A stretch of 64,000 nt of DNA from Staphylococcus phage LY01: the sequence record OR836606.1; one strand, given 5' to 3'. The notes under the pieces were generated by a model that saw nothing but the letters and a program-made list of their open reading frames with translations, had not been told where the DNA came from and searched no databases. Of this stretch, positions 53,615 to 55,602 are shown piece by piece (position 1 is the stretch's first letter; every line of letters starts with the position of its first letter). The position numbers and the translations under genes are program-made.

Positions 53615-53615
53615 C

Positions 53616-53823
53616 AAAATCTCATAACATTTAAAACATTTTACAATAATATAATTAAATTTAATTAACTTAATTGTGTAGCAGTTTTAAACTGGATTTT
53701 TCGGTTTCTGTACTAAAAACACATTAGCTTAGATCAATTCATTTATAAAGTTATTCCTATTAATTTAATAGAAAGATCTTTATAAATGCTTCACATCAGA
53801 GAACCATTCGATTTTTATAAAAT
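53616..53823 (-). ncRNA. predicted TnpB RE/omegaRNA scaffold, doubling as the intron 3' terminal region
   Basis: Non-coding segment directly 3' of tnpB, conserved with the two solo copies at 2.4 and 4.7 kb. The next ~20 nt (GTTAACTGATATACCGTTAAAT, exon 2) would be the guide. Confidence 0.55.
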
Positions 53824-55044
53824 CTAGGGATTAACCTTCCCCAATAAATATTTTCCTTCATTCATTAAATTTATTGCCGCATTGACATCTCTATCAATTT
53901 TATGACCACAAGAACATTTATAAGTTTTAGATTTCCCTATCTTATTTCTTCTTCCACAATTACTACATAATTGAGTCGAAGGGAACCATCTAGAAACTTG
54001 CACTAATTCAGAATTGAAAATATGTTGTTTATATTCTAATTGTCTTTTAACTTCATAGAAACAACTTTCAGCAATTGATTTTCTAATTCCTTTAGTTAAA
54101 TTATTCTTGTCAGCAATCATTTCTCTTACATCTAAATCTTCTAAAGTAATGTATTTATAATTTTTAACTAGAAAAGTAGTAAGTTCATGAACCATATTAG
54201 AACGAATATCTTTAATTCTTTTCCATGTACGTTGATATTTGATTCTCGTATCATTGTAATTTCTAGAATTAGGATTTTTACGTTTCATAATCTGATTATA
54301 AACTTTTGTACGATTATATAATTTCTCAAGCTTATCGATTTGTGAAGAAACTTCAAAACATTCACCATTTGAATCAAAAATAGTTGCGAAGGTTCTTACA
54401 CCTAAATCCACTCCACATATTTCTGCTGATTTGTGAGGAACTTTCTTAGGACGTTTCTTACCTATATCTATACAAAATGAAGCATACCATTTATCTATTT
54501 CTTTAGATATAGTAACTTCTTTAATAACTCCGTCAAATTTAATATCTTCTAATAGAGTTACTTCTGGAGATTTTGATAATTTTAATTTTCTACCATTTAA
54601 TTTAATAGCAGATTCATTTTTCCTATAATATCTACATGATTGAATTGGATCTCTTTTAGATTTAAATTTAGGAAATTTAGATATCTTATGAATTCTAAAA
54701 TTATCAAATGACTTTCCTAAATCAGCTATCGCAGTTTCAAATATCATAGAAGGTCTATCTTTTCTCCATGAAGTTTTTGTATACGGACGAACTATTTCAC
54801 GAACTACTCTTTCATCTGGTAAAAGTTTTCTAATGAATTTCTTAGATTCTTTATCTAATTTATCATCGTTAATCTTTTCAAAATAATTATGCATTTTACA
54901 ATAATTGTATCTCTTATTCCATTTTTCTAATCCTTTATTATAAATCCATCTTCTATAACCAAAATTCTTTTCGAACTCCTTTTTAGAAGGTTCATTTAAT
55001 CTTATCTGAACTTTTTGAGAAATATACATTTTAATGAATTGCAC
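53824..55044 (-). CDS. tnpB: TnpB (IS200/IS605-family RNA-guided nuclease, OrfB)
   Basis: N-terminal ...EKNFGYRRWIYNKGL. C-terminal zinc finger CSNCGRRN...CSCGHKIDRDVNAAINL (RuvC-III). 406 aa. GTG start at 55044 or ATG at 55029. Confidence 0.85.
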   Translation of the reverse strand: MQFIKMYISQKVQIRLNEPSKKEFEKNFGYRRWIYNKGLEKWNKRYNYCKMHNYFEKINDDKLDKESKKFIRKLLPDERVVREIVRPYTKTSWRKDRPSMIFETAIADLGKSFDNFRIHKISKFPKFKSKRDPIQSCRYYRKNESAIKLNGRKLKLSKSPEVTLLEDIKFDGVIKEVTISKEIDKWYASFCIDIGKKRPKKVPHKSAEICGVDLGVRTFATIFDSNGECFEVSSQIDKLEKLYNRTKVYNQIMKRKNPNSRNYNDTRIKYQRTWKRIKDIRSNMVHELTTFLVKNYKYITLEDLDVREMIADKNNLTKGIRKSIAESCFYEVKRQLEYKQHIFNSELVQVSRWFPSTQLCSNCGRRNKIGKSKTYKCSCGHKIDRDVNAAINLMNEGKYLLGKVNP

Positions 55045-55129
55045 CTCACTTTCATAATTTAATATTACTTTGTTACGAATAAGGTGCGGAAATATTTTTT
55101 TTTATAAAATCTTTTAAATGTTATGAGAT

Positions 55130-55602
55130 CTGAGATTCTCTTTCGAGTCTCATTAAGTAACTAGACTATATCATGATCCATTAAATTAATGGACCCCTCG
55201 CACTTCGGGAAATAAAATTTCCCTACTCTACTCACTTTACTTGATATCTCAATCAAGCTTATTCATCCATTGGATGTGCTTTCGATAGTCGTTGAACGTT
55301 CATCCATCATGTGGATGCTTCGCTGCTAGATTTCCCATTGTTTATAAACCTTAGCGATCTAGGATTTAAACCTAGACTTGTTTTCAGCATAGTTCATCTC
55401 AATCAATTTTTTCTGATTTTCATCGGCATTCACGCTATCCATTACTGGCATACGTTGTAGCTGATTGAGCTTTAGGAGTTTACAAGCAATTCACGAGGTA
55501 TTTTTACCACTATATTACTATAGTAGTGGTGTATGTTGTTTTAGTTAAGTTATAACAAAATTTTTAATATTTTATATTTTGTTATAAAAATATTAACTGT
55601 TA
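55130..55602 (-). ncRNA. group I ribozyme core of the IStron
   Basis: P GAATTGCTTG (55483-55494 rc), Q AATCTAGCAGCGAAGC (55318-55334 rc), R CGTTCAACGACTATCG (55283-55298 rc), S GATATAGTCT (55164-55173 rc). Locally higher GC than the surroundings. Confidence 0.7.

What the first reader, a model, noticed from the sequence alone, without database searches (positions are those of the whole stretch)
53615..55602. IStron (group I intron fused to TnpB/omegaRNA) splitting a phage GyrA-like topoisomerase gene
The GyrA-like reading frame stops at 55600. It resumes in frame at 53614 with the canonical C-terminal beta-pinwheel domain.

The 1988 nt in between, read on the minus strand, contain:
- a complete group I ribozyme core at 55130-55602 (P GAATTGCTTG, Q AATCTAGCAGCG, R GTTCAACGACTATCG, S GATATAGTCT)
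- a full-length tnpB gene
- a non-coding tail ending ...TTATGAGATTTTG, whose final G abuts exon 2

Splice-site features fit a group I intron: the 5' exon ends in U (...GGT GTT TGT | TAACAG...). Both junctions carry TTTGTTAAC, so an intron-less allele would read ...GVC-LTDIPL... across a GTTAAC site.

This is the IStron architecture (ribozyme at the 5' end, IS605-family nuclease gene, 3' splice site at the element end). Here it carries tnpB only. It sits in an essential phage replication gene that also hosts an intein.

The TnpB guide would be the exon-2 sequence next to the RE. That guide would target element-free alleles, suggesting RNA-guided homing, with splicing keeping the host gene functional.
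Basis: partly seen in the sequence, partly recalled or inferred. Interest (0 to 1): 0.92.

Follow-up and report, generated by a model that had tools for sequence, protein, structure and literature searches.

The report
TnpB-carrying IStron in phage gyrA

Summary
The architecture is real. The window comes from Staphylococcus jumbo phage LY01. On the minus strand its intein-containing gyrA is split by a 2,000-nt insert (55607..53608). Nine related phages have an uninterrupted gene.

The insert holds:
- a group I ribozyme. Rfam Intron_gpI scores 29.9 bits, below the gathering score, but 21 of 44 core pairs covary across six homologues;
- an intact tnpB (53824..55029);
- a conserved omegaRNA-like tail.

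Homologous ribozyme+tnpB composites occur in other phage contigs. One, in Listeria phage LPJP1, also carries an IS607-type serine recombinase. The LY01 element is therefore a tnpA-less member of the known group B (IS607-type) IStron family.

Empty alleles read SDG|DIPLN. TTTGTTAAC is a terminal repeat of the element, not the target. The likely splice sites are G55608|U55607 and G53608|A53607. These give scarless splicing after a G, as in group B IStrons.

The guide would start at 53607, next to a GGTG TAM-like motif.

IStrons are already known in phages, with tnpB only, and as candidates for TnpB-driven homing. This is a new member of a known kind.

The window also holds two tnpB-less omegaRNA copies whose guides match rival-phage alleles.

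The parts
55608..58362 (-). gyrA exon 1. It encodes the GyrA/ParC N-terminal domain, interrupted by a LAGLIDADG intein (about residues 114-495). Its last 4 nt, GGTG (55611-55608), are the TAM-like motif and the exon strand of P1.
   Evidence: Pfam DNA_topoisoIV, Intein_splicing, LAGLIDADG_3. Collinear with the Madawaska GyrA CDS up to G55608.
53608..55607 (-). The whole inserted element (IStron), 2,000 nt. The boundaries are ambiguous by the dinucleotide TG, which occurs at both junctions.
   Evidence: Alignment with uninterrupted gyrA of Madawaska, SA1, PALS_2 and PB50.
55599..55607 (-). Left-end copy of the 9-nt terminal direct repeat TTTGTTAAC. It belongs to the element, not to the target.
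55528..55537 (-). Internal guide sequence AACAUACACC. It pairs with GGUGU-U-UGUU (55611-55602) to form P1. G55608 pairs with C55531 and U55607 with A55532, followed by a U.U mismatch.
   Evidence: MFE fold. At the aligned position L004 has GCUAC pairing with its exon GUAG|U, which is covariation.
55141..55532 (-). Group I ribozyme core: P2-P9, a long P5 extension, an insertion between P7 and P3' (the place where, from my own recollection, subgroup IA introns carry P7.1/P7.2), P7 5' strand at 55290-55285, P7 3' strand at 55169-55164, and J7/9 UAG at 55163-55161.
   Evidence: Rfam RF00028 at 29.9 bits, E=9.2e-6. On the six-sequence alignment A8, 96.2% of cells are paired, 21 of 44 pairs are compensatory, 0 of 500 shuffles reach the observed values, and slid controls give 33-42%.
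53824..55029 (-). tnpB, 401 aa. It is identical to a 'hypothetical protein' of Staphylococcus phage LY01. RuvC motifs GVDLG / LEDLD / DRDVNAA and the CxxC...CxC zinc-finger cysteines are present.
   Evidence: Pfam; P0001 at 100% identity; alignment to solved TnpB structures 8exa/8h1j at E=1e-27.
53608..53845 (-). omegaRNA-like scaffold forming the right end. It overlaps the tnpB stop codon and ends ...GAGAUUUUGUUAACUG. G53608 is the proposed terminal (omega) G and 3' splice site. It includes the right-end TTTGTTAAC copy (53618-53610).
   Evidence: Conserved in 5 copies, with 13 compensatory pairs. nhmmer finds three copies in the window.
53588..53607 (-). Predicted guide segment ATATACCGTTAAATATATTT, which is also the first 20 nt of exon 2. 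It matches empty alleles of relatives at 18/20 (Madawaska, SA1), next to GGTG.
   Evidence: That it serves as a guide is inferred by analogy with published TnpB/IStron biology.
52796..53607 (-). gyrA exon 2, encoding the GyrA C-terminal beta-pinwheel domain.
   Evidence: Pfam DNA_gyraseA_C. The scarless join is collinear with Madawaska GyrA.
2310..2638 (+). Solo omegaRNA copy A, with no tnpB and no ribozyme. The scaffold ends ...ACAGCTG at 2618. The guide 2619-2638, GAACTTTACCTAATCAGTAA, is identical to the 3' end of the orthologous Madawaska gene, where GGCG precedes it.
4491..4829 (+). Solo omegaRNA copy B, at the 3' end of the gene annotated as holin in Madawaska. The scaffold ends ...ACAGCTG at 4809. 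The guide 4810-4829, GAGGATCTGCTGAAGATCAA, is identical to the Madawaska empty site, where GGTG precedes it.

Best explanation
The element is a tnpA-less IStron of the IS607-type (group B) lineage, sitting in the gyrA gene of Staphylococcus jumbo phage LY01.

Shown:
- A 2,000-nt element lies exactly between ...GATGGTG and ATATACC... of an otherwise continuous gyrA.
- Its 5' third is a group I ribozyme whose fold is conserved by covariation.
- Its middle is an intact-looking tnpB.
- Its 3' 240 nt is a conserved structured RNA that ends at the insertion boundary.

Inferred:
1. The gyrA pre-mRNA self-splices at the element boundaries, after G55608 and after G53608. P1 forms between GGUG|U and the internal guide ACACC, and P9.0 forms between J7/9 AG and the CU before the terminal G. 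Splicing regenerates the wild-type GyrA reading frame without a scar.
2. A fraction of transcripts is instead bound by TnpB as omegaRNA: the scaffold 53845..53608 plus about 16-20 nt of exon 2 as guide.
3. During co-infection, TnpB-omegaRNA cuts element-free gyrA alleles of related phages (GGTG followed by ATATACCGTTAAA...). Recombinational repair from the LY01 copy then copies the element in. This is RNA-guided intron homing.
4. The occupied allele is safe because the target there follows ...ACTG, with C instead of G at position -3.

No transposase is encoded in the element, so homing, or a transposase supplied in trans, is the only route of spread.
For: Insertion polymorphism:
- The flanks are contiguous in 9 related phages.
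- Exact empty sites were read in four of them.

Ribozyme:
- Rfam RF00028 matches the full model at E=9.2e-6.
- Homologous ribozymes lie upstream of tnpB in L004/L005, L007/L008, L010, L011, L009 and LPJP1.
- The P3-P8 core with the P3/P7 pseudoknot is 96% paired, 21 of 44 pairs are compensatory, and 0 of 500 shuffles reach the observed values.

Link to IS607:
- LPJP1 has the same ribozyme followed by a Resolvase-domain protein and then tnpB.

TnpB:
- Pfam domains are above cut-off, and the RuvC D/E/D motifs align to solved TnpB structures.

omegaRNA:
- Five copies show 13 compensatory pairs.

Splice sites:
- The scarless join is collinear with Madawaska GyrA.
- The P1 register covaries between LY01 (GGUG|U with ACACC) and L004 (GUAG|U with GCUAC).
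- J7/9 is UAG only in LY01, whose right end is ...CUG. It is UUG or CUG in the homologues whose right ends are ...CAG.
- Group B IStrons are published to splice after a G that pairs with a C, with U as the first intron base (PMC4227781, PMC13565253).

TAM and guide logic:
- The four LY01/Machias-lineage omegaRNAs are each followed by sequence that matches, in a related phage, a site preceded by GGTG, GGTG, GGCG or TGTG. Their own right ends read ACTG or GCTG.
- This parallels TGGG versus TCGG in CboIStron (10.1101/2023.11.20.567912).
Against: - The Rfam score is below the gathering score, and nothing was found unless the search was narrowed.
- P1 has no U.G wobble. U55607 pairs with A, whereas L004 and the published group B elements keep U.G.
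- No convincing P10 was found.
- The P9.0 argument rests on one compensatory event.
- The Madawaska and SA1 targets differ from the guide at 2 of 20 positions. No perfectly matching empty allele was seen for gyrA.
- No RNA data were available: splicing, omegaRNA processing, TnpB activity and the TAM are all inferred.
- The nearest tnpB copy (Machias, 87% nucleotide identity) has no ribozyme. The tnpB-omegaRNA module can therefore exist and move without the intron.
Confidence: 0.75

Rival explanations
1. It is the same IStron, but it splices where the first reader said: the 5' exon ends at U55603 and the intron ends at G53615. Twelve nt of element sequence would stay in the mRNA and add VCLT to GyrA.
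For: The join is in frame. The 5' exon would end in U, as in nearly all group I introns. Alternative 3' splice sites within 10 nt of the boundary are documented for CboIStron variants (PMC13521648).
Against: U55603 pairs with A, not G, so it gains no wobble pair either. The two bases before G53615 (UU) cannot pair with J7/9 UAG, whereas CU before G53608 can. All empty alleles lack the 12 nt. Published IStrons splice without a scar at the DNA boundaries. The right end extends beyond GAGATTTTG in all five copies.
Confidence: 0.17
2. No productive splicing occurs. The phage makes GyrA as two polypeptides: an N-terminal part ending ...SDGVC, and a C-terminal domain started at the TTG at 53617. The ribozyme is a relic.
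For: ORF 52796..53617 has a TTG start. P1 lacks the canonical U.G pair. The Rfam score is sub-threshold.
Against: The ribozyme core is maintained by compensatory changes across homologues whose TnpBs are only 36-64% identical. P1 and J7/9 have co-adapted to this particular insertion site and right end. There is only a weak GAG upstream of the TTG. Nine relatives keep a single gyrA ORF.
Confidence: 0.05
3. It is not a descendant of a transposon-type IStron. A free-standing phage tnpB-omegaRNA cassette, like the one in Machias, landed at the 3' end of a resident phage group I intron, acting simply as a replacement homing-endonuclease gene.
For: The Machias copy is 87% identical from the tnpB ATG to the right end and has no ribozyme. 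A second tnpB in the window (62341..63483) is also free-standing. The phage is full of ORF-less group I introns with similar cores. No tnpA is present. A GAGGTG motif sits just upstream of tnpB, as in Machias. IStrons are thought to have multiple origins (PMC4227781).
Against: The same ribozyme type is found upstream of tnpB in both TnpB lineages, in L004 (64% identity) and, with an IS607 serine recombinase, in LPJP1. The fusion therefore predates LY01. This ribozyme is distinct from the other introns of the window: nhmmer with alignment A8 hits only 55120-55614.
Confidence: 0.1

Closest known systems
Group B (IS607-type) IStrons: BcISt1 of Bacillus cereus, CboIStron/CbISt of Clostridium botulinum and its phages c-st and D-1873 (Tourasse 2014, PMC4227781; Zedaveinyte 2023/24, 10.1101/2023.11.20.567912)
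   Same: - The order is a group I (IA2-like) ribozyme, then tnpB, then an omegaRNA right end.
- The 5' exon ends in G, which pairs with a C of the internal guide. The first intron base is U, followed by an internal loop.
- The element ends in G.
- There is a G-rich motif on the left flank and a near-copy of it, differing at position -3, at the right end.
- tnpA is often lost.
- Such elements are already known in phage genomes.
- A relative with the same ribozyme (Listeria phage LPJP1) still carries the serine recombinase.
   Different: - The termini are GGTG| and ...CTG| instead of (A/T)GGG| and ...CGG|.
- The junction U pairs with A rather than G.
- No tnpA or tnpA remnant is present.
- The host is a Staphylococcus jumbo phage, and the site is an intein-containing gyrA.
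- The element is accompanied by two tnpB-less omegaRNA copies elsewhere in the genome.
Group A (IS200/IS605-type) IStrons, e.g. CdISt1 of Clostridioides difficile
   Same: Ribozyme at the 5' end, tnpB and omegaRNA at the 3' end, and scarless splicing at the element boundaries.
   Different: Group A elements insert after T-rich pentanucleotides (TTGAT and similar), the 5' exon ends in U, the 3' terminus is TCAG, and subterminal hairpins serve a Y1 TnpA. None of these is seen here.
Phage group I introns carrying protein homing endonucleases (T4 td/I-TevI, Twort and SPO1 introns)
   Same: A self-splicing intron in an essential DNA-metabolism gene of a lytic phage, present or absent among relatives, presumably spreading by double-strand-break repair during co-infection.
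   Different: The endonuclease here is RNA-guided (TnpB plus omegaRNA). Its gene lies downstream of the ribozyme core rather than in a peripheral loop, and the 3' splice site lies at the end of the guide-RNA scaffold.
Intronless homing by free-standing phage endonucleases (SegF, Mob; reviewed in PMC13565253)
   Same: This may apply to the two solo omegaRNA copies, the Machias cassette and the second tnpB. Each is a nuclease or guide placed between or at the ends of genes, whose target is the neighbouring sequence in rival phages.
   Different: Specificity would come from a guide RNA encoded next to the insertion, and two of the loci encode only the RNA.

Membership tests
IStron (any group) | Group I intron ribozyme at the 5' end of the element | tested here: met
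   RF00028 matches the full model at E=9.2e-6, though at 29.9 bits against a gathering score of 50. Covariation across 6 homologues supports P3-P8 and the P3/P7 pseudoknot.
IStron (any group) | IS200/IS605- or IS607-family ORF(s) downstream of the ribozyme on the same strand | tested here: met
   tnpB at 53824..55029 has three Pfam domains above cut-off. No tnpA is present, since only about 110 nt separate the ribozyme from tnpB. tnpB-only IStrons are documented (CsISt1, PMC4227781).
IStron (any group) | Element boundaries coincide with splice sites, so that splicing restores the host ORF | tested here: inconclusive
   The DNA boundaries are defined by four empty alleles. A join at those boundaries is in frame and collinear with intact GyrA. 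The element ends in G. Splicing itself cannot be tested with these tools.
IStron (any group) | Mobile: presence/absence polymorphism, with homologous copies at unrelated sites | tested here: met
   The element is absent from gyrA of 9 relatives. Homologous composites lie next to RusA, NrdD, Gp10_C/Peptidase_G2 and groL genes in other contigs.
Group B / IS607-type IStron | 5' exon ends in G paired with C of the internal guide; first intron base is U, followed by an internal loop | tested here: met
   G55608-C55531, U55607-A55532, then a U.U mismatch. L004 shows the same register with U.G. The U-A pair in place of U.G is a deviation.
Group B / IS607-type IStron | Insertion after GG (AGGG/TGGG/GAGG) and a 3' terminus CGG | tested here: not met
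   The left flank is GGTG and the terminus is CTG. The logic is similar, with G against C at position -3, but the motif differs.
Group B / IS607-type IStron | IS607 serine-recombinase tnpA, or a remnant of it | tested here: not met
   There is none in the element. The homologous LPJP1 element does have a Resolvase-domain ORF. The rest of the LY01 genome was not available.
Group I intron | Score at or above the Rfam gathering threshold | tested here: not met
   29.9 bits against 50. The other small group I introns of this phage also fall below it, at 16-46 bits.
Group I intron | U.G wobble at the 5' splice site and a terminal G at the 3' splice site | tested here: inconclusive
   A terminal G is present (53608). 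No U.G pair is possible with the predicted internal guide, which contains no G.
Group I intron | Self-splicing activity | not testable with these tools
   Needs in-vitro transcription and splicing, or RT-PCR.
TnpB RNA-guided nuclease with omegaRNA | RuvC D-E-D triad and zinc-finger/TNB domain | tested here: met
   GVDLG, LEDLD, DRDVNAA and CxxC...CxC align to solved TnpB structures. Pfam Cas12f1-like_TNB scores E=7e-19.
TnpB RNA-guided nuclease with omegaRNA | Conserved structured RNA overlapping the 3' end of tnpB and ending at the element boundary, followed by a guide that matches empty sites next to a TAM | tested here: met
   Five copies with 13 compensatory pairs. Four guide-to-empty-site matches lie next to GGTG, GGTG, GGCG and TGTG. 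No Rfam family matched. Cleavage was not tested.

The most novel reading that the evidence does not exclude
LY01 may run a small multi-guide RNA-guided homing or exclusion system. One TnpB, encoded inside the gyrA IStron, would serve three omegaRNAs: its own, and two tnpB-less, ribozyme-less omegaRNA cassettes at 2310-2638 and 4491-4829. The guides of those two are identical to the corresponding alleles of rival phages such as Madawaska. The LY01 copies of those gene ends are altered from guide position +8 onward. Several loci would then be driven into co-infecting relatives, or those relatives destroyed, by a single nuclease. That would be a phage-borne, array-less precursor of multiplexed guide use. 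In this lineage the precise right-end/guide junctions and untidy left junctions would reflect spread without any transposase.
Probability: 0.3. Interest if true: 0.75.

Novelty: new member of a known kind. Interest (0 to 1): 0.5.

Why it matters
The class is described. It includes phage-borne and tnpB-only members, and a 2026 review states that tnpA-less IStrons could spread by intron homing.

What this locus adds is a clean natural test case:
- a lytic, culturable Staphylococcus jumbo phage;
- an essential gene;
- close relatives with empty sites (Madawaska, MarsHill, PALS_2, S6, SA1);
- no transposase in the element.

Co-infection crosses could therefore measure TnpB-driven homing and the trade-off between splicing and guide RNA in its native setting.

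It also corrects the likely annotation of LY01 gyrA, which would otherwise read as two genes plus a 'hypothetical protein'.

Finally, it extends group B-like IStrons to new termini (GGTG|...CTG|) and to a P1 without a U.G pair.

Tried and rejected
- Rfam scans. The whole-window scan at gathering threshold and the 2.2-kb scan at E<=10 found no group I hit. Only a 541-nt slice did, so the negative results were a filter effect.
- Exact-pattern scans for the omegaRNA core. A 36-mer found nothing in viral contigs or genome contigs. A degenerate 18-mer gave 36 viral and 120 metagenome stretches. nhmmer showed that all but one were chance matches, and the one real hit duplicates contig L005.
- The search for related loci with TnpB in viral contigs found nothing.
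- The two other LY01 TnpBs (P0009, P0012) are not on record for context look-up. One was then found inside the window by tblastn.
- Promoter scans were no better than shuffles and say nothing about how the solo copies are transcribed.
- I considered that the sequence left of the solo copies is a guide-length target duplication made by RNA-templated insertion. I dropped this. For copy B the 'duplicate' is equally well an in-frame Gly-rich repeat followed by a second GGTG. For copy A it also aligns with the left end of copy B. The local alignment score equals the best shuffle.
- I considered that SA1 carries the left-copy allele of copy A. It does not.
- The idea that TTTGTTAAC is a target-site duplication is rejected, because the empty alleles lack it.
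Full report
SOURCE AND OBSERVATION

The TnpB encoded in the window is 100% identical to a 'hypothetical protein' of Staphylococcus phage LY01, a 258,897-bp contig. The flanks are 96-97.5% identical to the jumbo phages Madawaska, MarsHill, PALS_2, S6 and DC4.

On the minus strand:
- ORF 55600..58362 is the GyrA/ParC N-terminal domain carrying a LAGLIDADG intein.
- ORF 53824..55044 is a full-length TnpB.
- ORF 52796..53617 is the GyrA C-terminal beta-pinwheel.

The gross anatomy is therefore confirmed.

THE INSERT AND ITS TRUE ENDS

In nine related phages the two gyrA flanks are contiguous. Madawaska annotates one 3,555-nt CDS with an intein.

Empty sites were read directly. 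Madawaska, SA1 and PALS_2 have ...TCAGATGGTG|ATAT(A/T)CC.... PB50 has GATGGAG|ATGTACC. All encode SDG|DIPLN.

Against these, LY01 carries exactly 2,000 extra bases, 55607..53608. The dinucleotide TG occurs at both junctions, so the boundary is ambiguous by 2 nt.

No empty allele contains it or a GTTAAC site. The two copies are 1 nt out of frame with each other.

THE RIBOZYME

Rfam found no group I intron in the window at gathering threshold, nor in a 2.2-kb slice at E<=10. A 541-nt slice gave RF00028 over the full model at 55141..55532(-), with 29.9 bits and E=9.2e-6. This is below the gathering score of 50. The other small group I introns of this phage also fall below it.

The fold shows:
- P2;
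- P3 (CCUCG/CGAGG);
- P4;
- a 150-nt P5 extension;
- P6;
- P7 (GACUAU/AUAGUC);
- a roughly 90-nt insertion between P7 and P3'. From my own recollection, this is where subgroup IA introns carry P7.1/P7.2;
- P8 and P9.

Independent support comes from homologues. Contigs encoding TnpBs 36-64% identical to the LY01 protein carry an alignable ribozyme directly upstream of tnpB. These are L004/L005, L007/L008, L010, L011, L009 and Listeria phage LPJP1.

I wrote a group I core by hand, with P3 and P7 as a pseudoknot, and counted it on the six-sequence alignment A8. 96.2% of cells pair, 21 of 44 pairs show compensatory changes, 0 of 500 shuffles reach the observed values, and slid controls give 33-42%. 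For example, P3 reads CCUCG/CGAGG, CCUCA/UGAGG, CCUUG/CAAGG and UCUCA/UGAGA.

The ribozyme is real and under selection.

FAMILY

LPJP1 has the same ribozyme, followed by a Resolvase-domain protein (a serine recombinase, which the record annotates as an IS607-family context), then tnpB, then a tail ending ...AUAGCAG. This is a complete group B (IS607-type) IStron.

L004, L007, L010, L011 and LY01 have no tnpA between ribozyme and tnpB. Several of these contigs are clearly phage, with Phage_lysozyme2, RusA, Gp10_C and Peptidase_G2 nearby.

The LY01 element is thus a tnpA-less member of a phage-associated branch of the group B IStrons.

Tourasse et al. (PMC4227781) already list IStrons in C. botulinum phages c-st and D-1873, and a tnpB-only IStron (CsISt1). 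Zedaveinyte et al. (10.1101/2023.11.20.567912) showed TnpB/omegaRNA-driven retention and homing for CboIStron. A 2026 review (PMC13565253) states that tnpA-less IStrons with active TnpB could propagate by intron homing.

SPLICE SITES

Three in-frame joins obey 'intron ends in G':
- G55608|A53607, which is scarless;
- U55609|U53614, adding LT.

I favour the scarless join for four reasons.

1. It coincides with the DNA boundaries, as in all characterised IStrons. CboIStron gives 98% scarless product (PMC13521648).

2. The P1 register is conserved. The minimum-free-energy fold pairs exon GGUG plus intron U with ACACC (55532-55528), followed by a U.U mismatch and UGUU/AACA. At the aligned position L004 has GCUAC, which pairs with its own exon GUAG plus intron U. 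Two pairs covary. In L004 the G|U boundary also keeps the flanking ORFs in frame. This geometry is the published hallmark of group B IStrons, verified experimentally for BcISt1 (PMC4227781, PMC13565253): the exon ends in G paired with C, the first intron base is U, and an internal loop follows.

3. P9.0 covaries. The two bases before the terminal G are CU in LY01 and CA in L004. They are also CA in the lineage-2 tails, which share ...AUAGCAG and then diverge. J7/9 right after P7 reads UAG in LY01 only, and UUG or CUG in all the others. This is an A-U to U-A swap.

4. The right end extends past GAGATTTTG in all five copies.

Caveats: LY01 has U-A rather than U.G at the junction. I found no convincing P10. 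Point 3 rests on a single evolutionary event.

TnpB, omegaRNA, TAM AND GUIDE

TnpB aligns to solved TnpB structures (8exa/8h1j, E=1e-27). The RuvC motifs GVDLG, LEDLD and DRDVNAA and the zinc-finger cysteines are intact.

The last roughly 240 nt of the element, which overlap the tnpB stop codon, are conserved in five copies:
- the LY01 gyrA element;
- two further copies in the window;
- Machias;
- L004.

RNAalifold finds 13 pairs with compensatory changes among them.

In each of the four LY01/Machias-lineage copies, the sequence just after the right end matches a site in a related phage that lacks the element. The bases before that site there are GGTG (gyrA), GGTG (gene annotated as holin), GGCG (Madawaska gene 049 orthologue) and TGTG (PB50 lipoprotein-like gene). 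The elements' own right ends read ACTG or GCTG. In L004, where no empty allele is available, the inferred 5' exon ends GTAG and the right end reads ACAG.

G against C at position -3 mirrors TGGG against TCGG in CboIStron, where it prevents self-cleavage (10.1101/2023.11.20.567912).

The gyrA guide would be ATATACCGTTAAATATATTT (53607..53588). Madawaska and SA1 match it at 18 of 20 positions, and the mismatches lie away from the TAM side.

Cleavage, TAM identity and RNA processing are inferred, not shown.

MODULE DYNAMICS

Machias carries a tnpB-omegaRNA 87% identical to LY01's from the ATG to the right end, but with no ribozyme. It has replaced most of a small gene that PB50 keeps. Its right junction is precise and its left junction is not.

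The window holds a second, free-standing tnpB (62341..63483). It belongs to the lineage that is IStron-borne in L007, L010, L011 and LPJP1.

Both TnpB lineages therefore exist with and without the ribozyme. Because the ribozymes of the two lineages are homologous, loss of the ribozyme is more parsimonious than repeated capture. The alternative is kept as a rival at 0.1.

THE TWO SOLO omegaRNA COPIES

Copies at 2310-2618 and 4491-4809 (+ strand) have neither tnpB nor a ribozyme, yet they keep the scaffold. The first stem-loop is kept through compensatory changes. Each is followed by 20 or more nt identical to the Madawaska empty site.

Both sit at the 3' ends of genes. The sequence to their left repeats the first 7 nt of the target after a TAM-like motif and then diverges from position +8. 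I could not decide whether this is a duplication, left-end sequence, or, for copy B, an in-frame Gly-rich repeat followed by a second GGTG.

They could act in trans with the IStron's TnpB. This is the most novel reading and is untested.

VERDICT

This is a genuine and nicely complete IStron in an intein-containing phage gyrA. It belongs to a described class whose mechanism, phage occurrence and tnpB-only forms are published.

It is a new member of a known kind. Its value is as a tractable natural system, and the solo omegaRNA copies are an interesting side observation.

Noticed in passing
window 2310-2638 (+) and 4491-4829 (+): There are two tnpB-less, ribozyme-less copies of the omegaRNA scaffold, about 90% or more identical to the IStron tail in the core. 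Each lies at the 3' end of a gene and is followed by 20 or more nt identical to the element-free allele of Madawaska. The sequence to their left repeats the first 7 nt of the target after GGCG/GGTG and then diverges from position +8. The gene's C-terminus is altered (GGTLPH* against GGTLPNQ*; GGGSGGDL* against GGGSAEDQSN*).
   Followed up: partly
window 62341-63483 (-), tail to about 62165: A second, free-standing tnpB (380 aa, about 36% identical to the IStron TnpB). Its own omegaRNA-like tail ends ...TTTATATAGCAG. It belongs to the lineage that is ribozyme-linked in L007, L010, L011 and LPJP1, but here it has no ribozyme and follows a phage promoter-like motif.
   Followed up: partly
window 40394-41152 (-): Four tandem minimal group I ribozymes of about 170-180 nt each (RF00028 at 46, 34, 26 and 16 bits). 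Only 5-28 nt separate the model hits. They lie inside the gene annotated in Madawaska as viral RNA polymerase beta subunit (3 joined exons there). The implied exons are tiny.
   Followed up: partly
window, minus strand, R-motif starts at 27396, 41931, 50757, 50947, 60092: Further group I intron cores (GTTCAACGACTA ... GATATAGTC). About ten lie in the 64-kb window, all below the Rfam gathering score. The one near 41754-41931 adjoins a 370-aa ORF (41825..42937) that may be an intron-encoded endonuclease.
   Followed up: no
window about 56878-58020 (-): A LAGLIDADG intein inside gyrA exon 1 (Intein_splicing, LAGLIDADG_3, Hint). The gene therefore carries both a protein-splicing and an RNA-splicing element. 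The intein is shared with Madawaska and PB50.
   Followed up: no
L002 (Machias MW349128) 3003-4447 against L175 (PB50) 592-975: The Machias tnpB-omegaRNA cassette replaces most of a 127-aa lipoprotein-like gene present in PB50 and AH12. Only the gene's first codons and last 33 nt remain. The latter form the guide, with 1 mismatch to PB50.
   Followed up: partly
window 53601-53593 (-) and the left parts of the solo copies (about 2336-2346 and 4532-4542, +): The 9-mer CGTTAAATA occurs both in the gyrA target/guide and in the left-end region of both solo omegaRNA copies. This may be chance in AT-rich DNA, or a trace of shared history.
   Followed up: no
window 30935-31006, 32664-32735, 50250-50321, 63929-64000 and others: A repeated intergenic cassette: a hairpin GAGGTAATGACA...TGTCATTACCTC followed by TTTTATAATATATA. 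It looks like a phage terminator-plus-promoter unit, and the Madawaska and Machias records annotate such hairpins as terminators.
   Followed up: no
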